The notes under the pieces: model-generated
What the model was told of the DNA's origin: nothing
Database searches by the model: none
Seen by the model: only the letters and a program-made list of their open reading frames with translations
Made by a program: the position numbers and the translations under genes
Shown: piece by piece, positions 2,953 to 33,804 of the stretch
How positions within the stretch are numbered: the first letter of the stretch is position 1
Layout of the letters: every line of letters begins with the position of its first letter
NCBI GenBank assembly: GCA_016188545.1
Contig: JACPHO010000001.1
Coordinates: 483,324-547,323 of the forward strand
DNA: 64,000 nucleotides
Source: Candidatus Shapirobacteria bacterium
GTDB taxonomy: Bacteria; Patescibacteriota; Microgenomatia; UBA12405
Direction: 5' to 3'

Positions 2953-3026
2953 TGTTCTATGGCACTGAGCACTAGAGTTCTATCTTTCAAAAGTTCTATA
3001 GCTCTAACGTTCTATCGTTCTAACAT
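2953..3026 (+). repeat. Degenerate array of 8-bp subunits (GTTCTATG/TTCTATAG/CTCTAACG...), about 9 units, upstream of wzm
   Basis: Direct reading: gttctatggcactgagcactagagttctatctttcaaaagttctatagctctaacgttctatcgttctaaca. It belongs to the same family as the elements at 29-33 kb. Confidence 0.6.
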
Positions 3027-3039
3027 ATATAATAGATTC

Positions 3040-3840
3040 GTGATGTCTCTACTCAAAGAAGTTCGTGCAGTCGTCAAATGGCGAGAGCTGTTGTGGCAGA
3101 TGGTCAGCCGCGAGGTCATAGCCCGATACAAGCAGTCCATTCTCGGATATTTTTGGGTTATCCTAAACCCCCTAGCTCAGATGTTGGTCATGTCCTTTGC
3201 CTTCTCTATCATCATGCGCATTCCTACCAGCGCCTCATCCAATATCCCTTATTCAATTTTCCTATTTGTTGGTTTACTTCCCTGGACATTGTTTTCAAAC
3301 TCTCTCAGTTCTTCCTGTGCCTCTTTGGTTGGATCGGCACCACTTATTACCAAAATCTATTTTCCTCGAACAATTTTAGTTATCGCCACTACTATTGCCA
3401 AAATAATTGACTTCTTATTTGCCCTGTCGATTCTTGTTTTCTACATGGTCGCATACCAAATACCAATATCATTCAATATACTTTGGGTAATTCCAATTTT
3501 TATTATCCAACAAATATTTACTTTGGGATTATCACTCTTCTTAGCAGCAGCAAACCTACTATATAGAGATATTCAATATCTTTTAACACTGATACTTACA
3601 CTTTGGATGTACCTTACCCCTATTTTTTATCCTATAGATATTGTTCCAGAAAACTATCGATTTATTTTTCAGTTCAATCCTTTGACTGTAATAGTTAACG
3701 CTTATAGGCAAACTATCTTGGGTAATGGTGCTCCAAACTTTACAAGTTTATCTATTGCCTTTATTCTTTCGATTATTTCACTTTTAATAGGACTTTCATA
3801 TTTCAAATCCAGGGAAAAAATATTTGCAGATAATATTTAG
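3040..3840 (+). CDS. ABC-2 type polysaccharide/teichoic acid export permease (Wzm/TagG/KpsM family)
   Basis: LLKEVRAVVKWRELLWQMVSREVIARYKQSILGYFWVILNPL is the classic ABC-2 permease N-terminus. Six TM helices. Start moved to the internal Met; the upstream part of the track ORF covers the repeat array. Confidence 0.8.
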   Translation: MMSLLKEVRAVVKWRELLWQMVSREVIARYKQSILGYFWVILNPLAQMLVMSFAFSIIMRIPTSASSNIPYSIFLFVGLLPWTLFSNSLSSSCASLVGSAPLITKIYFPRTILVIATTIAKIIDFLFALSILVFYMVAYQIPISFNILWVIPIFIIQQIFTLGLSLFLAAANLLYRDIQYLLTLILTLWMYLTPIFYPIDIVPENYRFIFQFNPLTVIVNAYRQTILGNGAPNFTSLSIAFILSIISLLIGLSYFKSREKIFADNI

Positions 3841-3905
3841 TCACGTCATTGCGAGCAAAGGAATGAGTGTGACAATCTTTGGACCTCTGCCCATTACTAC
3901 ACAAA

Positions 3906-4088
3906 TCACTTTCCAAACAATATCCCATATTCGACATTACCTTCGTCAACTCTTATCTGTGCAATATCAATAGCATCACCAATATTATTCCCTTTCCCAA
4001 GTTTAGCAATCACTCTACCGTCACTTGCACAACGCTCCACAACAGTGAATCGCTTTCTAGATATGTAAATATAGTTATCTGTACTCAT
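3906..4088 (-). CDS. Small hypothetical protein immediately downstream of the Fic/Doc gene (possible partner)
   Basis: 60-aa ORF whose start abuts the stop of the Fic/Doc gene. No recognisable motif. Confidence 0.2.
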   Translation of the reverse strand: MSTDNYIYISRKRFTVVERCASDGRVIAKLGKGNNIGDAIDIAQIRVDEGNVEYGILFGK

Positions 4089-4089
4089 A

Positions 4090-5064
4090 TTACTTTATTA
4101 AATTGACCACCAGTTTTACTAAAATATCTTTCTCTTTAGGTTCACTAGTGGCTATTAAGAGTGCCAACGCCACCAAAGCACGATCATTAATTTTCTTTTG
4201 GCCTACTGTATTCAACAATAATTTGTTTTGATTTAAGTAATATACAAACAACATTGAACCAATCCGTTTATTACCGTCAATAAACGGATGATCTTTAATT
4301 ACCAAATAAAGCAGGTTCGCAGCTTTTTCCTCTATGCTTTTATATAAATACTTACCACCAAATGTCTGATCAATTGTTCCGATAACAGATTTCAACTTAT
4401 CACCATTCATCTGACCAAAAAATTCCGTCAACTTACCCTCATAGTTCCGTTTGATGCTTTCGATGAATTTGATAGCCATTGTATACGACAGCTCAAATCC
4501 TGTCTTGTAGCTTAGTTCTCCTAGTGTCAGCTTACCCTCATCGTATTTTGTTAAAAGATATATAGAATTTGTGTAATCAGAAATCAGTTCCAACATCGAA
4601 TCGATTTCACCTTTTAGCTGAGGAAGTTTGGACTTTGATGTAATCAAACCAACACTTTGCTTAAGCATCTCTAGTTGGTGATTCTGCTCAAGCAATCTTT
4701 TCTTGTTAACAACATATCCTTTTACTAAGTAATTTTTCAGTATCTTTGTAGCCCATATCCTAAACTTTGTACCTTGTACTGAATTAACCCTGTATCCCAC
4801 AGAAATAACCACGTCTAGGTTATAAAAATTAGTCAAGTAGCTCTTTCCGTCACCAGCAGTTATCCGGTATTTCCGGATAACTGACTTTCTATCTAGTTCT
4901 TTGTCATCAAAAACTTTTAAAGTATGTTCATTTATGGTTCGAACATCCTTACCAAATAGTTCCGCCATTTGTTTCTGACTAAGCCAAACTGTTTTTCCAT
5001 CAAAACTAACTCTGAGATCAATGTTTCCATTTGGTGATTTATATAACACAATTTTGTTTTTCAT
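4090..5064 (-). CDS. RhuM-family / Fic-Doc domain protein
   Basis: N-terminus MKNKIVLYKSPNGNIDLRVSFDGKTVWLSQKQMAELFGKDVRTINEH is typical of the RhuM virulence protein family. C-terminal HPFIDGNKRIGSML matches the Fic/Doc active-site motif HxFx(D/E)(G/A)N(G/K)R. The NKR form is the Doc-type variant. Confidence 0.7.
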   Translation of the reverse strand: MKNKIVLYKSPNGNIDLRVSFDGKTVWLSQKQMAELFGKDVRTINEHTLKVFDDKELDRKSVIRKYRITAGDGKSYLTNFYNLDVVISVGYRVNSVQGTKFRIWATKILKNYLVKGYVVNKKRLLEQNHQLEMLKQSVGLITSKSKLPQLKGEIDSMLELISDYTNSIYLLTKYDEGKLTLGELSYKTGFELSYTMAIKFIESIKRNYEGKLTEFFGQMNGDKLKSVIGTIDQTFGGKYLYKSIEEKAANLLYLVIKDHPFIDGNKRIGSMLFVYYLNQNKLLLNTVGQKKINDRALVALALLIATSEPKEKDILVKLVVNLIK

Positions 5065-5224
5065 AACTAATACTAAACCGAAGAATACCCGAAGTCAATA
5101 AACCAAACCCGAATCCATACCGAACTTGTTAAGATGTTAAAATGTTATGAACAATAGATTTGCCACACAACACACGCTAAGTAACAACCCATGAAAAATC
5201 AAACAACAAATCCACATCCAAACA

Positions 5225-5260
5225 CAGAACTTTGGAACGTTAGTTCTATGGATCTTTAGA
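5225..5260 (-). repeat. About 32-bp four-subunit repeat element, reverse orientation, immediately upstream of the four-helix-bundle gene
   Basis: Reverse complement reads ttctaaag atccatag aactaacg ttccaaag. Same architecture as the element at 5615-5649. Confidence 0.6.
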
Positions 5261-5620
5261 ATGAAATTTATAGACTTAAAAATCTGGGAAAAAAGTCATA
5301 AGCTGACGATTGAAATCTACAAACTCTGTAAAAAATTACCAAATACCGAAACGTTCGGAATAATATCACAGATTCAAAGATCGTCTTCATCGATCCCTGC
5401 CAACATTGCCGAAGGATTTGGAAGAAAAGGCAAGAAAGAGTTTATTCAATTTTTATACCAGGCGAAAGGATCACTTACCGAAACAGAATATTTTTTAATA
5501 TTAATCAAAGATCTAAATTATGTTGATAATATTGGAATCGAGAAATTAATATTTGAATACGAAATATTAGCTAAAATGCTAAACTCCTTTATCACTCAAC
5601 TCAAAGCAAAAAATGTCTAA
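5261..5620 (+). CDS. Four-helix-bundle protein (23S rRNA intervening-sequence protein / Avd-like family)
   Basis: 119 aa. KSHKLTIEIYKLCKKLP...FGIISQIQRSSSSIPANIAEGFGR...EFIQFLYQAKGSLTETEYFLIL matches the conserved TIGR02436/PF05635 four-helix-bundle pattern. Confidence 0.65.
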   Translation: MKFIDLKIWEKSHKLTIEIYKLCKKLPNTETFGIISQIQRSSSSIPANIAEGFGRKGKKEFIQFLYQAKGSLTETEYFLILIKDLNYVDNIGIEKLIFEYEILAKMLNSFITQLKAKNV

Positions 5621-6368
5621 AGATCTAAAGCCCCAACTCTCTAAAGCTCATGATCAAACGGTTATATCGTTTGATCATGTCACCAAAGATTTTTCCCGAA
5701 ACAATCAAAAAACTTTCAAAGAATTCCTTCCCGCCCTTTTCTATGGTGAAAAAACAGTCGACAGATTCACGGTTTTTAGCGATATCTCTTTTGAGATCAA
5801 AAAAGGGGAGTGTGTTGGTATTATCGGTCCAAACGGAAGTGGCAAATCAACTATTCTCAAACTCATTGCCGGTGTCATGAGTCCCAATAAAGGCAAAGTC
5901 CGTGTCCACGGTAAAGTCTCCCCCCTTATCGAGCTAGGAGCCGGTATGCACCCCGAACTTACCGGCAGGGAGAATGTCTATCTCAATGGCGCAATTTTAG
6001 GACTTAGCGGTCAGCAGATTAACAATAATTTTCAAAGTATTTTAGACTTTTCCGAACTATCCGAATTTATCGACCAACCTGTCAAACACTATAGTTCCGG
6101 CATGTACATGCGACTTGCTTTTAGTATTGCCATCCACGTTGATCCCGAGATACTTATCGTCGACGAAATTCTCGCAGTAGGAGACTCTGCTTTTCAGGCA
6201 AAGTGTTTTGCCAAAATGGAAGAATTCAAGAAAAACGGTGTAACCATAATTTTTGTCTCCCACTCAATGGAACACATAAAATCTTTTTGCAGTCGAGCTA
6301 TTTATCTTAATCAACACCAGATCCAGCATGATGGTCCCCCTGAAGCTGTCATATCTAAGTACTGCTAA
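5613..6368 (+). CDS. ABC transporter ATP-binding protein (Wzt/TagH-like) of the polysaccharide exporter
   Basis: Walker A GIIGPNGSGKST, signature YSSGMYMRLAF, Walker B ILIVDEILAVGD. Partner of the ABC-2 permease at 3040. Confidence 0.85.
   Translation: MSKDLKPQLSKAHDQTVISFDHVTKDFSRNNQKTFKEFLPALFYGEKTVDRFTVFSDISFEIKKGECVGIIGPNGSGKSTILKLIAGVMSPNKGKVRVHGKVSPLIELGAGMHPELTGRENVYLNGAILGLSGQQINNNFQSILDFSELSEFIDQPVKHYSSGMYMRLAFSIAIHVDPEILIVDEILAVGDSAFQAKCFAKMEEFKKNGVTIIFVSHSMEHIKSFCSRAIYLNQHQIQHDGPPEAVISKYC
5615..5649 (+). repeat. About 32-bp four-subunit repeat element at the 5' end of wzt
   Basis: tctaaag atctaaag ccccaact ctctaaag, encoding MSKDLKPQLSKA. It forms an imperfect inverted pair with the element at 5225-5260, flanking the four-helix-bundle gene. 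Confidence 0.6.
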
Positions 6369-6376
6369 AATAAACT

Positions 6377-6598
6377 ATGTCACACGACCGGATACTTACA
6401 AATCAACTTGATCCCAAACAGGCAATCACCATCATTAGTAGACTAACCCAGACCATAAACAAGCAAAACAAACAGCTGTTAATGGAAATTAACAACATCC
6501 AGCTACAAATATCTTATTTCGAAAATAATATTAAACTAATAAAATCATCAAAATATTACCATTTTATAAACTTTATAAAATCAACCATTCTCAGTTAA
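6377..6598 (+). CDS. Small hypothetical protein
   Basis: 73-aa ORF in a different frame from the downstream GT2. Coiled-coil-like and Asn/Ile rich. Weak. Confidence 0.2.
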   Translation: MSHDRILTNQLDPKQAITIISRLTQTINKQNKQLLMEINNIQLQISYFENNIKLIKSSKYYHFINFIKSTILS

Positions 6599-7908
6599 TG
6601 AAAAAGACGTTCACCCAGGTGTATTCTCAATACATTACTCAAAAGAAACTAAACGCTAGCCTCAAAAAAAAAATATGGCGTCTACGTACCCACCGCTTTA
6701 TCGCTTGGAATGACTTTAACAAGCTAACCTCCGTCATATCATTCAGATTGTGGCAACAGTACAATCACTTCAAAAAGTATCTTGTAAAACCGGTTTTTCT
6801 ATTCCCCTTTAAATCAATTTTCATCGTAGTTTACCTAGCCATCACCATCTGTCTATATTTTATATATAAGATATTCCACTTCTCATCCTCTTTTTTCTCA
6901 AAACCATTACCACTTTCATCACTCCAGGCCGAAATTGATGGTGTCAGTTTCATAATACCTACCTGGAACAAGGCAAAGATGGTTACCGACTGTGTCAAGA
7001 AACTGTCTTCTATTCTCGAAATAGAGTCGCCAAAAGTAAAAAAAGAAATCATTATCGTCAACAACGGTTCAGCCGATAATACAATCAAATCAATTACCTC
7101 GATCAATAGCTCAATTTCAATTAGATTAATCAATCTTCCCAAAAATGTCGGATTTGCCTCCGCCATTAATCTTGGAGTCATTGAATCCATGTACAACTAT
7201 ATCTATCTGATGAATAACGACATGATTCCCACCCCCACTTTTCTTTCGTCAATCATCAATTTTGCCCAAGCCAAAATTAACCAAGGCTCAAAATTCTTTG
7301 GCATATCATCTCAAATATTCTTTTTTGATAAGAACAAAAGACGGGAGGAATCGGGTAAAACATATATATATCCCTATTTTGGAATTATCCGCGCTGGTCA
7401 CATCGTCAACTCCAGCAACCTCCAAGACCCCTCGCCCACTTGTTATCCCGGGGGTGGTTCATCACTTCTCAACAAGCATATTTTTCAAAAACTTGGCGGC
7501 TACAATTCCACTATTTACCGGCCTATGTATTGTGAAGATTTGGACCAGGGATTTCTAGCATGGCAATACGGTTTTCCTTCATATTTTGTTCCCCAGTCAC
7601 ACATCATCCACCATCATCGTTCTAGTTCCAAGAAGCTAACTACCGACCCATCACATTATTTGTTCAAAAACTTACTCACATTTAGCCTTAAAAACATTAC
7701 CAGCTTCTCCCTCTTTCTAAAACATATTTTTTACTTTCCGATTTTATCCATAATAGACGATCATCATTTTAACTATCTACTTGGAGTGTTACCTATAATA
7801 CCGTCAATTTATCTCTACAAAGTTCGCTCGCTAAAATACAAATACATGCATCAAGACACCAGTCTATTTGACTTTATAAAATTTGAAGTAAAAAATGATC
7901 AATTCTAA
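6598..7908 (+). CDS. Glycosyltransferase family 2 (GT-A) with N-terminal membrane region
   Basis: FIIPTWNKAKMVTDCVKKLSS...IIIVNNGSADNT is the GT2 motif. Confidence 0.7.
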   Translation: MKKTFTQVYSQYITQKKLNASLKKKIWRLRTHRFIAWNDFNKLTSVISFRLWQQYNHFKKYLVKPVFLFPFKSIFIVVYLAITICLYFIYKIFHFSSSFFSKPLPLSSLQAEIDGVSFIIPTWNKAKMVTDCVKKLSSILEIESPKVKKEIIIVNNGSADNTIKSITSINSSISIRLINLPKNVGFASAINLGVIESMYNYIYLMNNDMIPTPTFLSSIINFAQAKINQGSKFFGISSQIFFFDKNKRREESGKTYIYPYFGIIRAGHIVNSSNLQDPSPTCYPGGGSSLLNKHIFQKLGGYNSTIYRPMYCEDLDQGFLAWQYGFPSYFVPQSHIIHHHRSSSKKLTTDPSHYLFKNLLTFSLKNITSFSLFLKHIFYFPILSIIDDHHFNYLLGVLPIIPSIYLYKVRSLKYKYMHQDTSLFDFIKFEVKNDQF

Positions 7909-9103
7909 AAAAAACAAACTTTTTTTGGCGGGTGGGGTATTCCCTTTTCCCAAAAGTAGTGGAGGTGCCACCCGCTTTTACCACACCATAAAGAACTTAA
8001 GCAAATATTTTGATATTTACCTCTTACTTTTCAAACCAAGTTACTATCGTCTATCACCAGCCGATACCCGCTTTCTAAAAAAGCACACTCGATATTACGA
8101 AATCATTGTTACAACTGATCACCAATCCCAGGACTCATTTTTTTCCACTACCAAACCATATTGGTTTTCCCCTTGGTACCATCCCGACGCTCTGTTGGCT
8201 ACTCGTCGGATCATATTCCAGAACAAAATTAAATTTGCTCAAATTGATACAACCCAAATAGCTTATCTCATCGACTCCATCCCCCGAACTGTTTTTTCGA
8301 TATTCGTTGCTTACGATATCTGCACTACTTCATTTATCCGTCGCCTAGCCGAAGTCAAAAATCTGAAAACATATATAGTTCATTACATCCGCTACCTTGA
8401 AATATATTTTTATGAACAAAAATATTTAAAGTTGTTTAACAAAATTGTAGTTATGTCGCCTGTTGACAGAAAAGAAGTCCGTCGTCTTTTCGGTGTTACC
8501 AACAGTATAAGCGTCCCGAACGGTATAGAATCAATCAACTTCCTCAATAAATCAGTTGACCCATCTCCCCTCAAAATTGGCTTGCTCGGGTCATTCAGCC
8601 ATCCTCCCAATCGTTTTGCTTTTTCTTACTTTTTGGAAAATATCGCTCCGCTTTTAAATAGACAGAAAATTAACTTTAATTTATATTTAGTCGGTAATAA
8701 TTCCACCCCTGAGATACAGAGTATAGTCAACAATATCTATCCTCAGATTTATTCCAAAATACATAACCTAGGGTTTATAAAAAGTACCAAAAGTGTCTTT
8801 AAAGGATTTGATTGTCTTTTTGCCCCCATATTTTCAGGTTCCGGTACCCGAGTCAAAATTATTGAGGCCCTCAGTTTTGGTATACCAGTTATCACCAGTC
8901 CCATTGGTGCCGAAGGCATCAAAACGAGCAACCCGTTTTTGACAGTGGCACACACTCCCCAAGAATACGTCAATGCTACCAAAAAGCTTGCATCCATCAA
9001 CGTTCCCTCAAACCTTATAAAGTTAAAAACATTTCTAAAGCCATTTCTTTGGTCAAGTATTTTTGACAAATACTATCAACAAGTCCACCACCACTTTAAA
9101 TGA
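7895..9103 (+). CDS. Glycosyltransferase family 4 (GT-B)
   Basis: C-terminal FAPIFSGSGTRVKIIEALSFGIPVITSPIGAEGI matches the GT4 EX7E region. Confidence 0.7.
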   Translation: MINSKKNKLFLAGGVFPFPKSSGGATRFYHTIKNLSKYFDIYLLLFKPSYYRLSPADTRFLKKHTRYYEIIVTTDHQSQDSFFSTTKPYWFSPWYHPDALLATRRIIFQNKIKFAQIDTTQIAYLIDSIPRTVFSIFVAYDICTTSFIRRLAEVKNLKTYIVHYIRYLEIYFYEQKYLKLFNKIVVMSPVDRKEVRRLFGVTNSISVPNGIESINFLNKSVDPSPLKIGLLGSFSHPPNRFAFSYFLENIAPLLNRQKINFNLYLVGNNSTPEIQSIVNNIYPQIYSKIHNLGFIKSTKSVFKGFDCLFAPIFSGSGTRVKIIEALSFGIPVITSPIGAEGIKTSNPFLTVAHTPQEYVNATKKLASINVPSNLIKLKTFLKPFLWSSIFDKYYQQVHHHFK

Positions 9104-11025: not shown

Positions 11026-11040
11026 CTTCTCATTATATTA

Positions 11041-11937: not shown

Positions 11938-12641
11938 CTTAGATGCAAAACGTGTGTATACGCTATTCCGTGACCATAATTATCACCCACAAGACCCAAT
12001 CCTTTAGTTGACCTTATTATCTTAAAACCGGATTTTTTTATTTTATCTACAAGTTTTTTCGGGGTCAAACTAACAGGATGCATTGGATTAGTTTCCTTAT
12101 GAATGTCGACCGATAGTAAAAATTCACCATCATCCTGCAAATACTTGTAGCAATTTTCCAAAACCTTATCTACATCAAACATATGGTCAAATACATTAAT
12201 ACACATAATAAATTTAACTGCACCTTCCAACTCTTTTATTGTCTTCTCAGCTGGTGCTGAAAATACTTTATAAGCATCATTCAAGTCATTCCAGGGTACA
12301 GTCTTAATAAAATCACTTCCCAGTGGTTCAATTCCTACAATCAAGGCATCGGTAAAAAACTTACTACGTAATTTTGAACCACATCCCAAGTCTATTATTA
12401 CCTGGCCTTTAAACATTGTTCTTTTGTACCCAAAACCTTCCATTAACTTTATTGTTTGTTCCATAAAACCTGCTGTATTCCGCCATTCATTCGTTTGATG
12501 AAAGATCAGTTCTCCCGGCTGAGCCTCCTTTTTCCAAGCTGTTTTTGCGATATTTTTCATAAATAATTCTACAACATCTGTTACTTTATACACAAATACA
12601 AGACAGTATCGGCATATAAAGTCGGGCTTTGAAAATACCAT
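11934..12641 (-). CDS. Class I SAM-dependent methyltransferase
   Basis: VIIDLGCGSKL glycine-rich motif I. Confidence 0.6.
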   Translation of the reverse strand: MVFSKPDFICRYCLVFVYKVTDVVELFMKNIAKTAWKKEAQPGELIFHQTNEWRNTAGFMEQTIKLMEGFGYKRTMFKGQVIIDLGCGSKLRSKFFTDALIVGIEPLGSDFIKTVPWNDLNDAYKVFSAPAEKTIKELEGAVKFIMCINVFDHMFDVDKVLENCYKYLQDDGEFLLSVDIHKETNPMHPVSLTPKKLVDKIKKSGFKIIRSTKGLGLVGDNYGHGIAYTHVLHLR

Positions 12642-22627: not shown

Positions 22628-22630
22628 ATT

Positions 22631-25325: not shown

Positions 25326-25368
25326 AGACTACTTATATCACAATCAGCCATTTGTACTAAAATAGCTT

Positions 25369-26778: not shown

Positions 26779-26791
26779 TATTCCTAATACC

Positions 26792-27910: not shown

Positions 27911-27947
27911 TCATTTATCAATCGTTGCGTCGGTGATAAGATGTCGA

Positions 27948-28883
27948 TTATTTCTTTACAAATATTAATAGCCCGCCGATCAAACTATTTATAACCGCCA
28001 GCACACCACCAAAGGTTGATACAAGCAGTACCTTTTCCGGAGCATACCCAAGCGGTACCAGGAAAAACAAAAACAAGTTTTCTCGAGCACCGAAGCCAGC
28101 CACCGATATTGGCAACAACAATATTAGCGATATCACCGGAATAAATATATATACCTGCAACAGGCTAATTCCTGCCCCAAAAACATTGCTATAAAACCAC
28201 ATCGGCATCATCCAAATTGGCTCTGCCAACAGCGACAATAAAAAGCAATGCAAAATTCTCCGGCGATTACCTTTCTTTAAAATATCCATTACTTGAATGC
28301 CTCGTCGAATCAGTTCAAATTTCGGCAAATACCTCTTTGCAAAATTTTCAAAATCAAAGTAAAAAACTACTACCAAAAATAAAATAGTTCCGACAAACAA
28401 CCCACCAAATACCAGTAATAATATCGGCGGGAACACATAACCCAAAGATTTTCCCAATAGTAGCGCTCCAAATCCCACAATCACAAAAGCCATCAGTCCG
28501 ATAATCCGATCTATCAGCACCGATGCCGCAATTTTTGATTTTGACAAATCAGGGTACTTACCCAAAAGCGGCACCCATTTAATTGCATCAGCCGCCAGAC
28601 CAGTTGGGAAAAATAGTCCATAAAATCCACCCAAATATGCTGCTCTCGTAAAATTCCAGTAATCTCTCCAACTAGTCTTGTCAAACAACAACCAACTCCA
28701 TCTAATCCCACCGATCAATGTAGTCATTACAAAGTACACAACCATCACCACCACAAACCAAGTCGGTACCATGGTAAATTCCCTGAAAAGATGAAGCACG
28801 TCTACCTTTCTAAACGCAAAATATATTAGTGCTATTGAAAGCACCGCCCTAAGCAACTCTGAGGACAATACTTTTTTGAGCAT
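27948..28883 (-). CDS. Flippase-like membrane protein (lysylphosphatidylglycerol-synthase TM-region family)
   Basis: MLKKVLSSELLRAVLSIALIYFAFRKVD start and 8 TM helices. Typical neighbour of polyprenol-P GT2 genes. Confidence 0.55.
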   Translation of the reverse strand: MLKKVLSSELLRAVLSIALIYFAFRKVDVLHLFREFTMVPTWFVVVMVVYFVMTTLIGGIRWSWLLFDKTSWRDYWNFTRAAYLGGFYGLFFPTGLAADAIKWVPLLGKYPDLSKSKIAASVLIDRIIGLMAFVIVGFGALLLGKSLGYVFPPILLLVFGGLFVGTILFLVVVFYFDFENFAKRYLPKFELIRRGIQVMDILKKGNRRRILHCFLLSLLAEPIWMMPMWFYSNVFGAGISLLQVYIFIPVISLILLLPISVAGFGARENLFLFFLVPLGYAPEKVLLVSTFGGVLAVINSLIGGLLIFVKK

Positions 28884-28906
28884 AATCGTAATCTATACTA
28901 TATCAA

Positions 28907-30121
28907 ATGGCCCGAATATTACTAATCACTCACATTTCCCCACCTGCCGTTGATGGTGGATCTAGAGTTATCCACAAAGTAGGGGAGTATCTTGAACGCA
29001 GTGGACATGAAGTAGCCTCACTCAGTAGTGACGCCAGCTCCACTGATGACTTCTCCCACCCGTATTCTAAAGTTCCAAAGCTCCAAAGTTCTAAAGCTCT
29101 ATATTTTCGTCTTCCTGTCTACACAATTTTTCACCGCCCATTAAAATTACTCTCTCGACTCCTTCCTATTTTTAATGTCTTCGCCAAAGGTCCTGTCTTT
29201 AAAATTATTCCCTTTTTAAAATTTTTGACTTTTTACCTCCGATTTAAGCCTGACTATATTATTGCCGGACCACTCCCAACCACCATCGCCCTCTATGCCA
29301 ATTTTCTAAAATTTCTATCTAAAACTCTAACGTTCCACAGTACTAAAGTTCTAATAAACTCTTCCTTTCATCCTACCGACAAAGATTTCCACAACCCACT
29401 TTTAATTCAAGCTCTCAAATCCTTCGATTTTCTCTGGACTCTAACCGACTATGAAACAAATTATTTTCATCAGCATTTTGGAATACCATTGTCCAAAATG
29501 ATAAACGTGGGTAATGGCGTCGATAGTTCCCTTTTAACTAAAGCTCCAAAGCTCCATAGTTCTAAAGCTCCAAAGCTCATTTTCCTTGGTTCTTTCGCCT
29601 CCCACAAAGGCATCGAAACTATTATTGATGCCTTTATTGTTTTAACTAAAGATCTAAAGTTCAAAAGTTCTAAAGAACTAACACTGACTCTTGCCGGTCA
29701 ACCCACTCTATATTCCTCATTTATCGAAAGTAAGATCAAAAAACTTCCACAAAAGGTTCGTTCTCGAATTAATGTAGTTTATAAATTCAAAACTAAAGAT
29801 CTAAAGTTCCTCCTCGACCAGAGCTCTGTCTTAATTTCTGCTTCATCCCAAGAAAGTTTTGGCATAGTCCTACTTGAGGCCATGGCCAGAGGTGTCCCCG
29901 TTATTGGCTCGGACATCCCCGCCACTTCCGAACTGATTCGTCGATCAGGTGCCGGCCTAACCTTTAAAACAGGAGATCCTGTCGATTTGGTTAAAAAAAT
30001 TATTTTTCTAAATATTTCCAAAGATCTAAAGCTCTATAGTTCCAAAGGGCGAAGCTATGCTTCCAATCATACTTGGGATAGAATAGGAGAGTCACTATGG
30101 CAAAAAATATCATCCTCATAA
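28907..30121 (+). CDS. Glycosyltransferase family 4 carrying six in-frame copies of the 8-bp-subunit repeat element
   Basis: ARILLITHISPPAVDGGS (GT4 N-terminus) and ESFGIVLLEAMARGVPVIGS (EX7E). Repeat-encoded inserts are SKVPKLQSSKAL, LTKAPKLHSSKAPKL, KDLKFKSSKELTL, KDLKF and KDLKLYSSKG. Confidence 0.75.
   Translation: MARILLITHISPPAVDGGSRVIHKVGEYLERSGHEVASLSSDASSTDDFSHPYSKVPKLQSSKALYFRLPVYTIFHRPLKLLSRLLPIFNVFAKGPVFKIIPFLKFLTFYLRFKPDYIIAGPLPTTIALYANFLKFLSKTLTFHSTKVLINSSFHPTDKDFHNPLLIQALKSFDFLWTLTDYETNYFHQHFGIPLSKMINVGNGVDSSLLTKAPKLHSSKAPKLIFLGSFASHKGIETIIDAFIVLTKDLKFKSSKELTLTLAGQPTLYSSFIESKIKKLPQKVRSRINVVYKFKTKDLKFLLDQSSVLISASSQESFGIVLLEAMARGVPVIGSDIPATSELIRRSGAGLTFKTGDPVDLVKKIIFLNISKDLKLYSSKGRSYASNHTWDRIGESLWQKISSS
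29065..29104 (+). repeat. 8-bp-subunit repeat element (5 units)
   Basis: ttctaaag ttccaaag ctccaaag ttctaaag ctctatat. Confidence 0.7.
29304..29358 (+). repeat. Degenerate 8-bp-subunit repeat element
   Basis: ttctaaaa tttctatc taaaactc taacgttc ... taaagttc taataaac. Confidence 0.45.
29536..29578 (+). repeat. 8-bp-subunit repeat element (5 units)
   Basis: aactaaag ctccaaag ctccatag ttctaaag ctccaaag. Confidence 0.7.
29644..29683 (+). repeat. 8-bp-subunit repeat element (4-5 units)
   Basis: aactaaag atctaaag ttcaaaag ttctaaag aactaaca. Confidence 0.7.
29791..29806 (+). repeat. 8-bp-subunit repeat, 2 units
   Basis: aactaaag atctaaag. Confidence 0.4.
30016..30047 (+). repeat. 8-bp-subunit repeat element (4 units)
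   Basis: ttccaaag atctaaag ctctatag ttccaaag. Confidence 0.7.
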
Positions 30122-30558
30122 TCGCTCTTGGCATATTTTCGTTCATTATATATCGAACTTTTTTCGTAAATATTCCTCTTCAAAAAGCCAATGTAAATAT
30201 AAAAGGCCAAGAATATACACTGGAAATCGCTTCGACTATATCTCAAAAATCAAAAGGTCTAATGAAACGAAATTCACTATGTTCAAACTGTGGCATGATC
30301 TTCGTCTCCGAAGCTCCTAGCGAACAAATCTTTTGGATGAAAAATACCCTAATTCCCCTTGATATTATTTTCCTTGATCCTGATGGAAAAGTTATCAATA
30401 TCGAGAGTGCTGTACCCCAACCATCTGTTCCCGATCTACAACTTAAGCTGTACCGTAGCACCGCACCGTCACAATTTGTCATCGAACTAAACAGTGGCGA
30501 AGCTAAAAAACTAAACCTTGTTCCAGGTGATGTAATTAATGTACCTTCTGGAATGTGA
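30097..30558 (+). CDS. DUF192 domain protein
   Basis: N-terminal TM helix. GMKRNSLCSNCGMIFVS...WMKNTLIPLDIIFLDPDGKVINI matches the conserved DUF192 (COG1430) core. Confidence 0.55.
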   Translation: MAKNIILIIALGIFSFIIYRTFFVNIPLQKANVNIKGQEYTLEIASTISQKSKGLMKRNSLCSNCGMIFVSEAPSEQIFWMKNTLIPLDIIFLDPDGKVINIESAVPQPSVPDLQLKLYRSTAPSQFVIELNSGEAKKLNLVPGDVINVPSGM

Positions 30559-31484
30559 CCAACAAACCAAAAGCTCTAAAGCTCCAAAGTTCTAAAGTCC
30601 CATACTTTAGTATTGTTATTCCCAACTACAACGGTGCTGCCTTTATAGAACCGTGTTTATTGGCTCTTAAAAAAGCCATATCCCAATGCCCTAGTTCACT
30701 TTTTGAAATAATCCTGGTCGATAACGGCTCCACTGACACAAGCACAGATATTTTTATCAAAGTTCTTAGTTCATTGAAAATTGAAAATTCCTGCCTGCCG
30801 GCAGGCAGGGTAAATTTGAAAATTATTCGTCTCCAGACGAATCATGGTTTTGCCACCGCAGTCAACAAAGGCATCGTCGCCTCAAAATACGATTATGTCT
30901 GTGTACTCAATAACGATCTAAACCTTGAACCAAACTGGTTTGATCATATTTCCAAAGCGATAACAAATAATCCCAATTTCTCAACTTTCTGTGGCACTGT
31001 ACTATCCTATGACGGATCAAAGATTGAGTCTCAAGGACTTCGCTATTTTATGTCTGGTCGCTGCGAAAACATAAATAATGGAAAGCCCTTCTCAACTAAA
31101 GTTCTAAAGCTCAAAAGTTCTAAAGTTCCAGTCTGGGGTAGCTCTGCCGCTGTAGTTGTCTACCAAAAGTCAGCCATAACCAAAGTCGGCCTGTTTGACG
31201 AATCATTCTTTGCTTATATTGAAGACGTTGATTTGGCTTATCGCCTCCAAAAAAGTGGCTTCAAAAGCTTACTAATCCCCAAGGCAATTTCCTATCATAT
31301 GGGTGGTCGAACCAGCGACAGTATGGGTACACTCCGCCAATACTACACCCTACGCAATTGGATAAAGTTAATTACAAAAAATTATTCAAAGAGAGAATTA
31401 GTTACCAACTTACCATCAATCTCGATCGAAAGACTACGCAATCTATCGTATTTGATCCGATCTTCTCTTATAATTAAACAATAA
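30555..31484 (+). CDS. Glycosyltransferase family 2
   Basis: YFSIVIPNYNGAAFIEPCLLAL...ILVDNGSTDTS. Contains an internal repeat-encoded STKVLKLKSSKVP. Confidence 0.75.
   Translation: MTNKPKALKLQSSKVPYFSIVIPNYNGAAFIEPCLLALKKAISQCPSSLFEIILVDNGSTDTSTDIFIKVLSSLKIENSCLPAGRVNLKIIRLQTNHGFATAVNKGIVASKYDYVCVLNNDLNLEPNWFDHISKAITNNPNFSTFCGTVLSYDGSKIESQGLRYFMSGRCENINNGKPFSTKVLKLKSSKVPVWGSSAAVVVYQKSAITKVGLFDESFFAYIEDVDLAYRLQKSGFKSLLIPKAISYHMGGRTSDSMGTLRQYYTLRNWIKLITKNYSKRELVTNLPSISIERLRNLSYLIRSSLIIKQ
30566..30597 (+). repeat. 8-bp-subunit repeat element (4 units) spanning the start of the downstream GT2
   Basis: accaaaag ctctaaag ctccaaag ttctaaag. Encodes KPKALKLQSSKVP at the GT2 N-terminus. Confidence 0.7.
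31094..31125 (+). repeat. 8-bp-subunit repeat element (4 units) inside the GT2
   Basis: aactaaag ttctaaag ctcaaaag ttctaaag. Confidence 0.7.
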
Positions 31485-31487
31485 TAT

Positions 31488-32630
31488 ATGATTATCGGTA
31501 TTGACGTTTCCGCAATTCCCTATGGCACCGGAGTCAGTAATTACACTTCAAATCTGGTCCGTAACCTTGTTTTAATAGATCATAAAAATCAATACAAACT
31601 GTTTTTCTCCTCACTTCGCCAACCGCTACCTCTAGAAATTAGTGAGCTAATTAAATACAAAAACGTCACCATATACCATCATTACTTACCACCAACTCTT
31701 CTATCATATCTTTGGAATGATCTTCATATACTTCCAATTGAAATGTTTATTGGTCGCTGCGACGTGTTTCACACCTGGGACTGGACTCATCCTCCCACAA
31801 CCAAAGCTAAGACCATCACCACTGTCCACGACTTTGTACCTTTTCTATTTCCAGAAGATCAACACCCCCGTACAATTGCTACTTTTAAAAAGAAACTCTC
31901 ACATGCTGCCCGGGAATGTCTCCATTTTATCTGTGTTTCTCAAAGCACCAAAGATGACCTAACTCGGATTTTCCCAGGCATTAGTCTCGATAAAATATCT
32001 GTCATTTATGAAGCTGCTGAAAAAAAGTTTGACCAATTTCACAAACTGTCTCTAAAAGATCGTCAACAAAAAATTGCCAAAATTCACCAACAATACGGGT
32101 TATCTAACTTTATTCTAACCCAAGGCACTCGTGAGCCCCGTAAAAATTTGCACCGACTTATCAAAGCTTTTACTTTATTCAAAAAAGAGCATCCCACCTC
32201 AAAAGTCGAACTGGCCATCTCCGGAAAGTACGGCTGGGGAGAAGATGTCTCTCCACCGGGGGACAACTCCGTCAAAGTACTTGGCTATATTCCTGAAAAA
32301 GATTTGGTAGCCCTCCATGCCAGTGCCCTTTGCCTGGCATACCCCAGTACTTACGAAGGTTTTGGTTTGCCCATTATCAAATCGATGAAGGTTGGTACTC
32401 CGGTCATCACTAGTAACCTCTCCTCACTCGCTGAAGTCGCCGGACTGGCTGCTCTCCTTGTCAACCCCACTAGCACCAAGGAACTAACCGACGCTATTAC
32501 CAAAATCGTTAATTCACCCACACTTAGGAGAACCCTTATAAATCGAGGTTACCGCCAAGCAGCCAAATTTTCTTGGACTAAAACCGCTTCACAAACCCTG
32601 GCAATTTATGAAAAAGTCGCCTCACAATAA
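31488..32630 (+). CDS. Glycosyltransferase family 4
   Basis: MIIGIDVSAIPYGTGVSNYT N-terminus. EGFGLPIIKSMKVGTPVITSNLSSLAEV (EX7E). Confidence 0.8.
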   Translation: MIIGIDVSAIPYGTGVSNYTSNLVRNLVLIDHKNQYKLFFSSLRQPLPLEISELIKYKNVTIYHHYLPPTLLSYLWNDLHILPIEMFIGRCDVFHTWDWTHPPTTKAKTITTVHDFVPFLFPEDQHPRTIATFKKKLSHAARECLHFICVSQSTKDDLTRIFPGISLDKISVIYEAAEKKFDQFHKLSLKDRQQKIAKIHQQYGLSNFILTQGTREPRKNLHRLIKAFTLFKKEHPTSKVELAISGKYGWGEDVSPPGDNSVKVLGYIPEKDLVALHASALCLAYPSTYEGFGLPIIKSMKVGTPVITSNLSSLAEVAGLAALLVNPTSTKELTDAITKIVNSPTLRRTLINRGYRQAAKFSWTKTASQTLAIYEKVASQ

Positions 32631-32653
32631 TATGTTAAGCAAATAATTATTAT

Positions 32654-32685
32654 TTCTAAAGATCTATAGCACTAAAGCTCTAGAG
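32654..32685 (+). repeat. 8-bp-subunit repeat element (4 units), intergenic
   Basis: ttctaaag atctatag cactaaag ctctagag, just upstream of the GT4 start at 32695. Confidence 0.7.
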
Positions 32686-32694
32686 CACCAATCA

Positions 32695-33804
32695 ATGAAC
32701 ATTGGAATAGATGCCAACGAAGCCAACCTGACCGTCCGTGTCGGAGTCGGTCAGTATGCATTCAATGTCATTTGGGAACTTTACCGTCAGGACCAAAAAA
32801 ATACTTATCATGTTTACTTAAAACAACCACCCCTCTTAGATATGCCTGTGCAAAGGGAAAACTGGCACTATCACGTCTTTGGTCCGCAAAAGTTATGGAC
32901 TATTATCGGTCTACCTCTAAGGCTCTTCACTCAATCAATAAAACTGGATATCTTCTGGTCACCTAGTCATTATTCACCACGATTTTCCCCGGTTCCCACC
33001 ATTCCTACCATTCATGACTTGGGTTACCTCCAATCCCTTGATCAGTTTAATTCTAAAGATATCTATCAACTAGTAAATTGGACTAAGCATTCACTTTACA
33101 AAGCCCACCACATCGTGGCCGTCTCCGAATTTACCAAGAGTGAAATCAATCGTATCTATAATATTGATTTAAAAAAGATAACTGTAGTACCCAATGGAGT
33201 AGGGGAAATCCCGATTACTTCTGACAAAGATTTTAGTAATGTGAAGAAAAAATTCGGCATTGCCAATCCATACTTCCTCTATCTAGGAACCCTCAAACCA
33301 AACAAGAACATTCCATTCCTAATAAATTCCTTCTCTGAATTTCTAAAGCTCCAAAGCTCTAAAGTTCACCAGTACCAATTAGTTATCGCCGGTAAAAAAG
33401 GCTGGCAGTACGATTCTATTTTTTCTCAGGTAACCGCAAGAGAATTGGAAAAATCTGTCATCTTTACCGATTATATTAGTGAACTAGAAAAGTGGACACT
33501 CTATAAAAACGCCATCGCATCGGTACTTCCTAGCACCTACGAAGGTTTTGGTATTCCAGCCATAGAGAGCCAAAAGTCAAAAGTTCCCGTCATCGCCAGT
33601 GACATTCCCTCATACCGAGAAGTTCTTTTAGATTCTGCCATTATTATTGACCCGACTAGTACTTCTTCCCTAACCCAAGCCATGATCGATATCCAATCCC
33701 CGCCACTTCGCAAAAAACTAATAGTCCTGGGAACAATCCAAGCCAACCATTACACCTGGGCAGCTTCAGCCCAAAAGCTTATTAAGACGTTCAATAAGGT
33801 ATAA
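32695..33804 (+). CDS. Glycosyltransferase family 4
   Basis: MNIGIDANEANLTVRVGVGQYAF. EGFGIPAIESQKSKVPVIASDIPSYREV. Contains repeat-encoded EFLKLQSSKVH. Confidence 0.75.
   Translation: MNIGIDANEANLTVRVGVGQYAFNVIWELYRQDQKNTYHVYLKQPPLLDMPVQRENWHYHVFGPQKLWTIIGLPLRLFTQSIKLDIFWSPSHYSPRFSPVPTIPTIHDLGYLQSLDQFNSKDIYQLVNWTKHSLYKAHHIVAVSEFTKSEINRIYNIDLKKITVVPNGVGEIPITSDKDFSNVKKKFGIANPYFLYLGTLKPNKNIPFLINSFSEFLKLQSSKVHQYQLVIAGKKGWQYDSIFSQVTARELEKSVIFTDYISELEKWTLYKNAIASVLPSTYEGFGIPAIESQKSKVPVIASDIPSYREVLLDSAIIIDPTSTSSLTQAMIDIQSPPLRKKLIVLGTIQANHYTWAASAQKLIKTFNKV
33341..33364 (+). repeat. 8-bp-subunit repeat element (3 units) inside the GT4
   Basis: ttctaaag ctccaaag ctctaaag. Confidence 0.65.

What the first reader, a model, noticed from the sequence alone, without database searches (positions are those of the whole stretch)
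2953..33364. Dispersed roughly 32-bp element made of four 8-bp subunits (YTCYAAAG), at least 14 copies, many in-frame inside glycosyltransferase genes
Copies lie at 2953-3026, 5225-5260 (reverse), 5615-5649, 29065, 29304, 29536, 29644, 29791, 30016, 30566, 31094, 32654 and 33341. Each is a tandem run of imperfect 8-mers (ttctaaag/ttccaaag/ctccaaag/atctaaag). Inside GT4/GT2 genes they translate into K/L/S-rich inserts (KAPKLHSSKAPKL, KDLKFKSSKEL, LKLQSSKV) without breaking the frame. Others sit exactly at start codons or in intergenic spacers. An 8-bp unit is not a multiple of three, so gain or loss of one unit by slipped-strand mispairing would frameshift the host glycosyltransferase. This is the classic architecture of phase-variable surface-glycan loci. 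Alternatively it is a REP/MITE-like recombination or regulator-binding element specific to this island. One GT4 (28907-30121) carries six copies.
Basis: seen in the sequence. Interest (0 to 1): 0.8.

Follow-up and report, generated by a model that had tools for sequence, protein, structure and literature searches.

The report
Conserved in-frame octamer arrays in glycan genes
A candidate-phylum bacterium carries 13 short runs of an 8-base repeat (ideal unit NTCTAAAG) in its surface-sugar genes, many translated in frame; selection keeps the DNA letters rather than the peptide, and the same repeat brackets a conserved gene of unknown function, so these are not on/off phase-variation switches.

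Summary
There are 13 arrays of 2-5 imperfect 8-bp units at the stated coordinates (18 two-unit matches against 0.14 expected). All lie in two blocks of a glycan-biosynthesis island of a Candidatus Shapirobacteria genome.

The phase-variation reading is not supported:
- No two adjacent units are identical.
- The host operon is syntenic in relatives.
- Orthologous GT4 genes at 72-74% amino-acid identity keep arrays at the same sites, mostly with the same unit number.
- More distant orthologues (58-59%) keep the 8-nt periodicity with a drifted unit (NTCTAACG/ATCG) and a different peptide.

Window against the 74% orthologue: the six core bases are 87-100% identical, the two degenerate bases 43-61%, and neutral four-fold sites 41%. 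Position 4 is T except where TAA would be in frame.

The same unit forms the two inverted arms that enclose a PF05635 (23S-rRNA-IVS/Avd-like) gene. This gene sits between wzm and wzt in the window and in 5 of 5 related loci. Across phyla, every PF05635 gene examined is bracketed by 7-8-bp tandem arrays.

Best reading: STRR-like, dual-coded nucleic-acid elements tied to the IVP module.

The parts
2953..3026 (+). Array A: about 6-9 degenerate octamer units (core TTCAAAAG TTCTATAG CTCTAACG TTCTATCG TTCTAACA). It lies in the divergent spacer between the epimerase (2014-2913, -) and the likely real start of wzm (ATG 3044).
   Evidence: An equivalent array lies upstream of wzm in relative L182. It pairs with the IVP 5' arm at dG -34 kcal/mol.
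3044..3840 (+). wzm-like ABC-2 membrane permease (host operon).
   Evidence: PF01061. The start codon is inferred from the sequence.
5225..5261 (-). 5' arm of the IVP module. Four octamer units in inverted orientation (on the - strand: TTCTAAAG ATCCATAG AACTAACG TTCCAAAG), ending at the IVP start codon.
   Evidence: It pairs with 5616-5650 in both the MFE and the centroid fold.
5261..5620 (+). PF05635 gene (23S rRNA intervening-sequence protein / four-helix-bundle, Avd-like), enclosed by the two arms.
   Evidence: Pfam E 5.5e-39. PDB relatives 2gsc and 2rld each hold 5 chains in the entry. Homologues at 58-86% identity lie between wzm and wzt in 5 of 5 related loci.
5615..5649 (+). 3' arm of the IVP module (GTCTAAAG ATCTAAAG CCCCAACT CTCTAAAG). 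It contains the IVP stop codon (5618-5620) and encodes the N-terminal extension of wzt (MSKDLKPQLSKAHDQ).
5613..6368 (+). wzt-like ABC ATPase (host operon). Its start overlaps the IVP stop.
   Evidence: PF00005. The same overlap occurs in L183, L184 and L186.
28907..30121 (+). GT4 glycosyltransferase that carries six in-frame arrays.
29065..29104 (+). GT4a site 1: TTCTAAAG TTCCAAAG CTCCAAAG TTCTAAAG (SKVPKLQSSKA), in a coil of low model confidence.
   Evidence: L121 is +15 nt here. L178 carries a different small element at this site.
29304..29356 (+). GT4a site 2: degenerate array (ATCTAAAA CTCTAACG TTCCACAG TACTAAAG TTCTAATA).
   Evidence: Conserved unit by unit in L121, L178 and L180.
29536..29578 (+). 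GT4a site 3: five units (TKAPKLHSSKAPKL) in the interdomain linker.
   Evidence: This is the lowest pLDDT block of the model. L181 is +24 nt (3 units) here.
29644..29681 (+). GT4a site 4: four units (TKDLKFKSSKEL).
   Evidence: L120 lacks exactly 24 nt here. L180 and L181 have NTCTAACG/ATCG units here.
29791..29809 (+). GT4a site 5: two units (AACTAAAG ATCTAAAG), within a helix.
   Evidence: Identical in L121.
30016..30050 (+). GT4a site 6: four units (SKDLKLYSSK).
   Evidence: The odd unit CTCTATAG is conserved in L121 and L178.
30566..30600 (+). Array J: three to four units between the DUF192 stop and the conserved start of GT2. It reads as a 9-codon N-terminal extension from GTG 30555.
31094..31128 (+). 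Array K: four units inside GT2 30555-31484 (TKVLKLKSSKV).
   Evidence: L181 has an array at about the same site. L120 has a TCATTGCGAG...GACAATCT element there instead.
32654..32688 (+). Array L: four units in the 64-bp spacer between GT4b and GT4c, 10 nt before ATG 32695.
   Evidence: It is absent from L120 (2-bp spacer), and L124 is about 70 nt shorter here.
33341..33367 (+). Array M: three units inside GT4c 32695-33804 (LKLQSSKV). The loop is equivalent to GT4a site 4.
   Evidence: The same 24 nt are identical in L124, a contig only about 65% identical overall.

Best explanation
The copies are one lineage-specific family of short tandem-octamer arrays. The ideal unit is NTCTAAAG, usually four units long. 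They belong to the same repeat family as the two inverted arms that enclose the PF05635 (23S-rRNA-IVS protein / Avd-like) gene at 5261-5620. That gene is a conserved resident between wzm and wzt in this CPR clade.

Shown:
(1) Inside glycosyltransferase genes the arrays are translated and dual-coded. Only the one unit in three whose TAA would be in frame deviates (to CAA, AAA or TAT).
(2) They are old and vertically inherited, with the same sites in orthologues down to 58% identity.
(3) What is conserved is the nucleotide pattern, not the peptide. Six of the eight positions are conserved, out of phase with codons.
(4) Every copy outside the 5' arm is on the sense strand of its host or downstream gene.
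(5) The arms form a long-range stem around the IVP ORF. This stem also covers the IVP and wzt start regions.

Inferred: the arrays act at the nucleic-acid level as cis-elements of the glycan operons. A multimeric factor could read them. One candidate is the IVP protein itself, because its solved relatives are pentameric rings and arrays have 4-5 units. The complementary 5'-arm RNA could also pair with them, which would give double-stranded RNA that RNase III could cleave. Either way the marked genes would be tied to the wzm-IVP-wzt module. The arrays are not slipped-strand on/off switches.
For: - The repeat is real and clustered.
- Codon test, window against L121: among identical amino acids the same codon is used in 42 of 53 cases inside arrays. 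The expectation from per-amino-acid rates outside arrays is 29.0 +/- 3.3 (P about 5e-5). Amino-acid identity is lower inside arrays, 65% against 77%.
- Per-position identity of orthologous units (N T C Y A A A G) is .43 .87 .96 .61 1.0 .91 .91 .91. Neutral four-fold sites are at .41.
- Orthologous units are more alike than neighbouring units of the same array (Hamming distance 1.39 against 2.03-2.46, permutation P = 0.0007). This indicates descent rather than recent homogenisation.
- Dual coding: position 4 is T in 43 of 52 out-of-frame units but in 2 of 15 in-frame units (P = 1.5e-6), and in 10 of 13 intergenic units.
- L180 and L181 (58-59% identity) keep 8-nt arrays at the same sites. Their unit is NTCTAACG/ATCG and their peptide is ALTLQRSNAL instead of KDLKFKSSKEL.
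- L120 and L179 have lost the pattern (core identity .57).
- The IVP arms pair in both the MFE and the centroid fold. IVP lies between wzm and wzt in 5 of 5 related loci and always has inverted octamer arms. In L186 both arms have changed together to CYAGCG/CGCTAG.
- Further sense-strand solo arrays with the arm's unit occur in radical-SAM and GT2 genes of L183 and L184.
- The 5' arm pairs with every solo array at dG -19 to -34 kcal/mol. Control windows give -10 +/- 3.
- PF05635 genes in 10 plasmid loci and 9 other loci from many phyla are bracketed by 7-8-bp arrays.
- The Coxiella IVS has tandem heptamers next to the S23p start, a 28-bp stem and RNase III cleavage. The Xanthomonas S23p is a homopentameric ring (PMC4990558).
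Against: - No reader has been identified, and nothing here measures binding, RNA processing or expression.
- IVP protein similarity does not track the unit sequence across phyla. This argues against a simple 'each IVP reads its own unit' model.
- The constraint statistics rest mainly on one gene compared in a few lineages.
- Ectopic gene conversion from other arrays could also restore core bases while scrambling the degenerate ones.
- The sense-strand bias inside genes may partly be a protein filter. The reverse orientation would encode F/W/L-rich or stop-containing peptides.
- Only 64 kb of a 564-kb genome was visible, so restriction to the glycan island is shown only for this window.
- TCYAAAG arrays in other phyla show no link to glycan genes and no orientation rule.
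Confidence: 0.5

Rival explanations
1. The arrays are selfish or neutral minisatellite-like DNA. They were seeded from the IVS/IVP arms or by slippage, are tolerated only in permissive protein loops and spacers, and are kept periodic by slippage, repair or ectopic gene conversion. They have no host function.
For: Three of the six GT4a sites coincide with the three lowest-confidence coil segments of the model and with indel-rich alignment columns. The same loops host unrelated small repeats in other lineages: a TCATTGCGAG element in L120 and L178, and NYELRIK-type sequence in P0011. Some lineages have lost the arrays without visible harm (L120, L179). Similar arrays are widespread in intergenic DNA of many phyla, with no context rule. 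The function of cyanobacterial STRRs is still unknown (PMC2670836).
Against: Orthologous units keep idiosyncratic variants and are more alike than neighbouring units. This argues against recent homogenisation. Core bases are 87-100% conserved while four-fold sites are saturated at 41%. Imperfect 24-40-bp arrays are poor substrates for homologous conversion; this last point is inference. Three sites lie in structured helices.
Confidence: 0.27
2. The arrays are phase-variation switches. Gain or loss of one 8-bp unit by slipped-strand mispairing frameshifts the glycosyltransferase and turns a glycan step on or off.
For: An 8-bp unit is not a multiple of three. The arrays sit in surface-glycan genes. 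Unit-number changes do occur over evolutionary time. The heptamer number differs between Coxiella strains in the IVS (PMC4990558).
Against: No adjacent units are identical. Unit number is conserved at five of six sites at 74% identity and is identical in two samples. All observed length changes preserve the frame. The operon is a conserved syntenic core. Several arrays are intergenic or consist of only two units.
Confidence: 0.05
3. The peptide is what is selected. The K/S/L-rich inserts would be functional loops, for example basic membrane-association patches of the GT-B enzymes.
For: The inserts are Lys-rich and lie on surface loops of membrane-associated GT4 enzymes.
Against: Amino-acid identity is lower inside arrays than outside, while codon identity is higher. 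L180 and L181 keep the nucleotide period but encode N/T/R/S-rich peptides. The same unit occurs in non-coding spacers and as the IVP arms.
Confidence: 0.04
4. The arrays are recombination linkers. Shared tracts of about 32 bp at domain boundaries of paralogous glycosyltransferases would promote domain shuffling or cassette exchange within the island.
For: Arrays lie at the GT4 interdomain linker (site 3). They also lie in the equivalent loop of two paralogues, GT4a site 4 and GT4c array M. Their length is close to the minimum needed for homologous recombination; this point rests on general knowledge.
Against: Gene order and orthology are conserved across relatives, and no chimeras were seen. 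The arrays are imperfect. This reading does not explain the arrays in spacers or the IVP arms.
Confidence: 0.04

Closest known systems
23S rRNA intervening sequences that encode S23p/PF05635 (Coxiella, Leptospira, Xanthomonas-type)
   Same: A PF05635 ORF is enclosed by terminal inverted repeats that form a stem. Tandem 7-8-nt repeats abut the start codon. A true 23S IVS on an Azospirillum plasmid (L176) shows the same inverted heptamer/octamer arms (PMC4990558).
   Different: The module here is not in rRNA. It lies inside a wzm-wzt exporter operon, and that position is conserved across a CPR clade. The arm repeat also occurs as solo copies inside protein-coding genes. RNase III excision was not tested.
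Cyanobacterial STRR (short tandemly repeated repetitive) sequences
   Same: Both are dispersed short arrays of tandem 7-8-nt units with no known function, and they sometimes form hairpins between genes (PMC2670836). The cyanobacterial PF05635 genes sampled here are flanked by such heptamer arrays.
   Different: The unit here is 8 nt. The organism is a CPR bacterium. Many copies are translated in frame and show measurable purifying selection on the nucleotides. No STRR-IVP link came up in the few literature searches run here.
Rickettsia palindromic elements (RPEs) and other MITEs inserted in frame
   Same: A repeat family is found in frame inside unrelated enzymes, at positions compatible with the fold (PMC10969869).
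   Different: RPEs are palindromic elements of about 150 bp. The arrays here are 16-40 bp, non-palindromic, made of tandem octamers and without target-site duplications. They are orthologously conserved rather than scattered recent insertions.
Simple-sequence-repeat contingency loci (Haemophilus, Neisseria, Campylobacter glycosyltransferases)
   Same: Both are tandem repeats within surface-glycan genes whose unit length is not a multiple of three (PMC2651432, listed).
   Different: Contingency tracts are perfect and hypervariable, and they lie in accessory genes. The tracts here are imperfect, stable in length across deep orthologues, and located in a conserved operon.
Arrays of short tandem boxes read by oligomeric proteins (MetJ 8-bp metboxes, omega-repressor heptads, TRAP triplet repeats). 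This is a resemblance in how it might work, recalled from general knowledge.
   Same: There are 2-5 tandem copies of an 8-nt box with a conserved core and degenerate positions. The candidate partner (S23p/IVP) is a homopentameric ring (PMC4990558).
   Different: No binding has been shown. The arrays lie inside coding regions and on one strand only. IVP sequence does not co-vary with the unit across phyla.

Membership tests
SSR contingency locus (slipped-strand phase variation) | Perfect or near-perfect tandem tract long enough to slip | tested here: not met
   No two adjacent units are identical in any of the 13 arrays. Neighbouring units differ at about 2 of 8 positions.
SSR contingency locus (slipped-strand phase variation) | Unit number differs between closely related genomes or within a population | tested here: inconclusive
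   L121 and L122 (two samples) are identical, and five of six sites keep their unit number at 74% identity. Raw reads and near-identical strains were not available.
SSR contingency locus (slipped-strand phase variation) | A change of one unit shifts the reading frame of the host gene | tested here: met
   The unit is 8 bp and the arrays lie inside ORFs. However, the only indels seen between lineages are +15, +24 and +27 nt.
SSR contingency locus (slipped-strand phase variation) | The host gene is an accessory, variably present surface determinant | tested here: not met
   The block LPG_synthase-GT4-DUF192-GT2-GT4(-GT4)-hexapeptide transferase is syntenic in L120, L179, L180, L181 and the P0010 contig.
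IVS-type PF05635 element | ORF of the PF05635 / S23p family | tested here: met
   Pfam E 5.5e-39. PDB relatives are 2gsc and 2rld.
IVS-type PF05635 element | Terminal inverted repeats that form a stem around the ORF | tested here: met
   5227-5260 pairs with 5616-5650 in the MFE and centroid folds, including a perfect 10-bp core GATCTTTAGA/TCTAAAGATC. The whole-region z-score is only -1.16.
IVS-type PF05635 element | Location in helix 25 or 45 of 23S rRNA | tested here: not met
   The gene lies between ABC2_membrane and ABC_tran genes. There is no rRNA or other Rfam match in the window.
IVS-type PF05635 element | Excision of the stem by RNase III | not testable with these tools
   This needs RNA-end mapping. 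It has been shown for Coxiella (PMC4990558).
STRR-type dispersed short tandem repeats | Dispersed arrays of tandem units of about 7 nt, many copies per genome | tested here: met
   There are 13 arrays of 8-nt units in 64 kb. The same unit recurs in relatives and in at least 119 loci of other phyla. The unit is 8 nt, not 7.
STRR-type dispersed short tandem repeats | Occurrence in heterocystous cyanobacteria, mostly between genes | tested here: not met
   The organism is Candidatus Shapirobacteria, and 9 of the 13 arrays are translated.
RPE / MITE | Terminal inverted repeats or a palindromic body, and target-site duplication | tested here: not met
   The solo arrays are unidirectional tandem units. 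No inverted partner or duplication is visible at their edges.
RPE / MITE | In-frame presence inside unrelated ORFs at structurally permissive positions | tested here: met
   Sites 1, 3 and 4 match the lowest-pLDDT coils and the indel columns. The frames stay open.
Diversity-generating retroelement | Reverse transcriptase next to the Avd-like gene, and a TR/VR pair that differs at adenines | tested here: not met
   No RT domain was found in any ORF of the window scanned with Pfam. The adenines of the unit are its most conserved positions.

The most novel reading that the evidence does not exclude
PF05635 proteins (the enigmatic '23S rRNA IVS protein', Avd-like pentameric rings) and tandem 7-8-nt arrays would form a previously unrecognised cis/trans system. 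In this CPR clade it would be built into the wzm-wzt exporter operon and would mark a set of glycan-synthesis mRNAs or genes through dual-coded octamer arrays. The arrays would be read either by ring binding to 4-5 units or by arm-RNA pairing followed by RNase III cleavage. If so, it would also give a function to cyanobacterial STRRs and to IVP genes wedged into operons across bacteria.
Probability: 0.2. Interest if true: 0.85.

Novelty: new variant of a known kind. Interest (0 to 1): 0.66.

Why it matters
This is a clean natural case of overlapping codes. An 8-nt nucleic-acid motif is maintained through protein-coding sequence in all three codon phases, and the only deviations are those needed to avoid stop codons. 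It links three poorly understood things: dispersed short tandem repeats (STRR-like), the widespread but functionless-looking PF05635/IVS proteins, and in-frame repeat insertions in CPR proteins. It also yields concrete, testable hypotheses about IVP binding, arm pairing and RNase III processing. Finally, it warns against calling phase variation from repeat arithmetic alone.

Tried and rejected
(1) Does IVP protein similarity track the repeat unit? No. Cyanobacterial IVPs with other units are 40-46% identical to the window IVP. IVPs with TTCTAAAG arms are 37% identical or undetectable.

(2) Are TCYAAAG arrays in other phyla near glycan genes? No. Only 13 of 164 loci have such genes nearby, mostly generic ABC ATPases.

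(3) Is there an orientation or position rule for arrays in other phyla? None is clear. Most are intergenic.

(4) Is there a higher-order 32-bp consensus, that is, a discrete four-unit element? No convincing non-equivalence of unit positions was found.

(5) Is this a DGR? There is no reverse transcriptase in the window and no adenine-specific variation.

(6) Known RNA families: no Rfam match at gathering threshold.

(7) Is IVP a defence gene? There is no PADLOC hit for IVP.

(8) Is IVP present in the held parts of GT4 relatives (L120, L178-L181)? None was found, but those stretches do not reach wzm/wzt. The test 'array retention goes with IVP presence' could therefore not be made.

(9) Literature: searches for PF05635 plus repeats, and for STRR, found no general description of the IVP-array link. 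Only the Coxiella heptamers came up.

(10) The metagenome pattern scan returned mostly homogeneous CTCCAAAG arrays from unrelated organisms. Only L124 was syntenic.

Full report
OBSERVATION

The repeat is real. The two-unit pattern YTCYAAAGNTCYAAAG (up to 1 mismatch) occurs 18 times against 0.14 expected. Tandem Repeats Finder reports period-8/16 arrays at the same coordinates. A register-aware scan gives 13 arrays of 2-5 units, most often four:
- 2953-3026 (+)
- 5225-5261 (-)
- 5615-5649 (+)
- ten on the + strand between 29065 and 33367

None lies in 6-28.9 kb or 33.4-64 kb. The window is 38% G+C. The 100% database match of GT4 28907-30121 names the organism as Candidatus Shapirobacteria, on a 563,806-bp contig.

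CONTEXT

Nearly the whole stretch from 0 to 46.8 kb is a glycan-biosynthesis island. It holds epimerases, wzm/wzt, many GT2/GT4 genes, radical-SAM and methyltransferase genes, MBOAT/AlgX, Wzy-like, ManC and a sugar transferase. RecO, an aminoacyl-tRNA synthetase and the dcw cluster follow. Arrays occur only in two sub-blocks: around wzm/wzt, and in the operon GT4a-DUF192-GT2-GT4b-GT4c. Other GT genes and all housekeeping genes in the window lack them.

NOT INSERTIONS OF THE MOMENT, NOT SWITCHES

The GT4a operon is syntenic in relatives (L120, L179, L180, L181 and the P0010 contig). Codon alignments give the following picture.
- The 74% orthologue (L121, and the identical L122 from a second sample) has arrays at all six GT4a sites.
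- The 72% orthologue (L178) has them at four of the six sites.
- Unit number is unchanged at five of the six sites in L121. Site 1 differs by +15 nt.
- The 69% orthologue L120 has no arrays. At five sites it has degenerate sequence of the same length, and at site 4 it lacks exactly 24 nt (three units).
- Array L (32654) is an insertion of about 60 bp relative to L120.
- Array J adds 9 codons to the GT2 N-terminus.
- Array M is identical over 24 nt in L124, a contig only about 65% identical overall.
- The 58-59% orthologues L180 and L181 still have 8-nt periodic arrays at sites 2-4, and L181 also at site 1. Their units are NTCTAACG, NTCTATCG or CNCCAACG, and their peptides are different (ALTLQRSNAL against KDLKFKSSKEL). 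L181 site 3 is +24 nt.

All length changes preserve the frame. No adjacent units in the window are identical. This is the opposite of a contingency locus. Reads were not available, so rare slippage is not excluded.

NUCLEOTIDE-LEVEL CONSTRAINT

Window against L121:
- Amino-acid identity is lower inside arrays (65% against 77%).
- Among identical residues, the same codon is used in 42 of 53 cases inside arrays. Per-amino-acid rates outside arrays predict 29.0 +/- 3.3 (P about 5e-5).
- Because 8 is out of phase with 3, each unit position falls on all three codon positions. Even so, identity by unit position (N T C Y A A A G) is .43 .87 .96 .61 1.0 .91 .91 .91. Four-fold sites outside arrays are at .41.
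- Against L120, the core positions are at .57 and the N/Y positions at .53.
- Orthologous units are more alike (Hamming distance 1.39) than neighbouring units of the same array (2.03-2.46; permutation P = 0.0007). The pattern therefore reflects descent under purifying selection rather than recent intra-array homogenisation.

DUAL CODING

Position 4 of the unit is T in 22 of 27 units where positions 4-6 are out of frame. It is T in only 1 of 8 units where they form a codon. There it is C or A, or the codon is TAT (Fisher P = 8e-4). L121 plus L178 give 21 of 25 against 1 of 7. The combined P is 1.5e-6. Intergenic units have T in 10 of 13 cases. The preferred unit is thus NTCTAAAG.

An AlphaFold model of GT4a (pLDDT 89) shows that the three least confident segments are the coils at sites 3, 4 and 1. 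Sites 2, 5 and 6 overlap helices.

LINK TO THE PF05635 GENE

The ORF at 5261-5620 is a PF05635 protein. The array at 5225-5261 is inverted and ends at its ATG. The array at 5615-5649 contains its stop codon and encodes the N-terminus of wzt. The two pair in both the MFE and the centroid folds, with a perfect 10-bp core. This is the architecture of ORF-bearing 23S rRNA intervening sequences. For Coxiella, a 28-bp terminal stem, tandem heptamers next to the S23p start (2 or 3 copies depending on the strain) and RNase III cleavage are documented. The Xanthomonas S23p is a homopentameric ring (PMC4990558). The PDB relatives 2gsc and 2rld each hold five chains.

The window IVP has 286 homologues at E below 1e-10, many of them 73-86% identical. 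In all five related loci fetched (L182-L186, IVP 58-86% identical), the gene lies between ABC2_membrane and ABC_tran. Its stop overlaps the wzt start wherever the two genes are adjacent. It is always bracketed by inverted octamer arrays. In L186 both arms have changed together to CYAGCG / CGCTAG.

Extra sense-strand arrays with the arm's unit lie in radical-SAM and GT2 genes of L183 and L184, and upstream of wzm in L182.

The 5'-arm RNA is complementary to every solo array at dG -19 to -34 kcal/mol, against -10 +/- 3 for control windows. It pairs better with arrays A and L than with its own 3' arm.

GENERALITY

The exact three-unit pattern occurs in at least 119 stretches of reference genomes from many phyla, often several per genome. 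Those arrays are usually homogeneous and abut arrays of other 7-8-nt units.

Every PF05635 ORF in those loci is directly flanked by 7-8-nt tandem arrays. So are 9-10 of 10 PF05635 genes sampled independently from plasmids of cyanobacteria, Riemerella, Gemmatirosa and Azospirillum; the Azospirillum case is a true 23S IVS. The two sides are usually reverse complements of each other. The units differ from copy to copy. Several of these genes are wedged inside operons (cas6|cas4, cas10|cmr3).

IVP similarity does not predict the unit. In other phyla the arrays show no association with glycan genes and no orientation rule.

The literature held here says that STRRs are mostly 7-bp repeats of unknown function that can form hairpins (PMC2670836). 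It lists '23S rRNA IVP' among CRISPR-array-linked proteins (PMC10910872). That link may simply reflect these flanking arrays; this is my inference. The few searches I ran found no general description of the IVP-array link.

MECHANISM

Shown: the arrays are an old, vertically inherited, dual-coded nucleotide motif on the sense strand of glycan-operon genes. They share their unit with the stem arms of a conserved wzm-IVP-wzt module.

Inferred: they are cis-elements read at the RNA or DNA level. Two concrete versions follow.
(a) An oligomeric reader contacts the core TC.AAAG of 4-5 successive units. IVP is the obvious candidate, since its solved relatives are pentameric rings, but weakens a strict protein-unit specificity.
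(b) The 5'-arm RNA pairs with sense arrays in trans and gives double-stranded RNA that RNase III could cleave. Version (b) fits less well with the two degenerate positions.

The arm stem itself covers the IVP and wzt start regions. It could therefore gate wzt translation, or split the transcript.

The main rival is that these are selfish, self-perpetuating repeats tolerated in loops. Loss in some lineages and the promiscuity of the same loops for other small repeats support that view. The site-by-site conservation argues against it.

VERDICT

Phase variation is not supported. The arrays are an STRR-like, IVS-arm-related repeat family with clear nucleotide-level constraint, embedded in frame in glycosyltransferases. 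This is a new variant of known kinds, and it gives a testable link to the unexplained PF05635 family.

Noticed in passing
window 3841-5612: wzm (3044-3840) and wzt (5613-6368) are separated by a 1.8-kb insert. It holds a short palindromic element, a 60-aa ORF (3906-4088, -), a RhuM/Fic protein (4090-5064, -) and the IVP gene. The RhuM/Fic protein matches the PADLOC candidate defence family PDC-S23 over its full length (E 4e-118). The same RhuM/Fic-IVP-wzt arrangement is in L185. Simpler relatives have only wzm-IVP-wzt.
   Followed up: partly
window 3841-3885; L120 about 12180-12240 (inside GT2); L178 about 600-650 (inside GT4): This is a second small repeat family with termini GTCATTGCGAG...G(T/C)(G/A)ACAATCT, flanked by GTCAC/GTGAC in the window. 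In relatives it is inserted in frame into the same protein loops that carry octamer arrays in the window. L120 GT2 has 'SSLRESLPRAKSRGDNL' where the window has array K. L178 GT4 has 'RHCEECNDKAIL' at site 1. There is only one copy in the window.
   Followed up: partly
L026, L045, L048, L081, L083, L088, L105; L168-L177: Every PF05635 gene examined, from Ignavibacteria, Bacteroidota, Verrucomicrobiota, Lentisphaerota, Cyanobacteriota, Gemmatimonadota and an Azospirillum 23S rRNA IVS, is bracketed by 7-8-nt tandem arrays. These are usually inverted with respect to each other, and the unit differs from copy to copy, even within one genome (L083). Several of the genes are wedged inside operons (cas6|cas4, cas10|cmr3, toxin ABC exporter).
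   Followed up: partly
L001-L119 (genome contigs), L123-L167 (metagenome contigs): Arrays of TTCTAAAG, GTCTAAAG, TTCCAAAG or CTCCAAAG (3-22 units) are dispersed in MAGs of many phyla, often several per genome. They often abut arrays of other units (TGCTAAAG, TGCGGGAG, TTCTGAGG, TTCCAGAG, TGACCAA and others). In Lentisphaeria they are interleaved with a GGTCCCGC-NNNN-GCGGGA hairpin.
   Followed up: partly
P0011 and P0003 (GT4 orthologues), alignment A1 columns about 240-255: At GT4a site 3 these orthologues read 'IRNYELRIKKSK' and 'IEDCSLKIKDS'. The first looks like the translation of a different short tandem repeat. The DNA of P0011 was not fetched.
   Followed up: no
window 2977-3024 against 5225-5260: The IVP 5' arm pairs better with array A upstream of wzm (dG -34.0) and with array L (-32.3) than with its own 3' arm (-24.3). 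This raises the possibility of alternative long-range pairings in the wzm-IVP-wzt transcript.
   Followed up: no
window 1-64000: No Rfam family reaches its gathering threshold anywhere in the 64 kb. Most gene starts in the array region have no obvious Shine-Dalgarno sequence upstream (read by eye).
   Followed up: no
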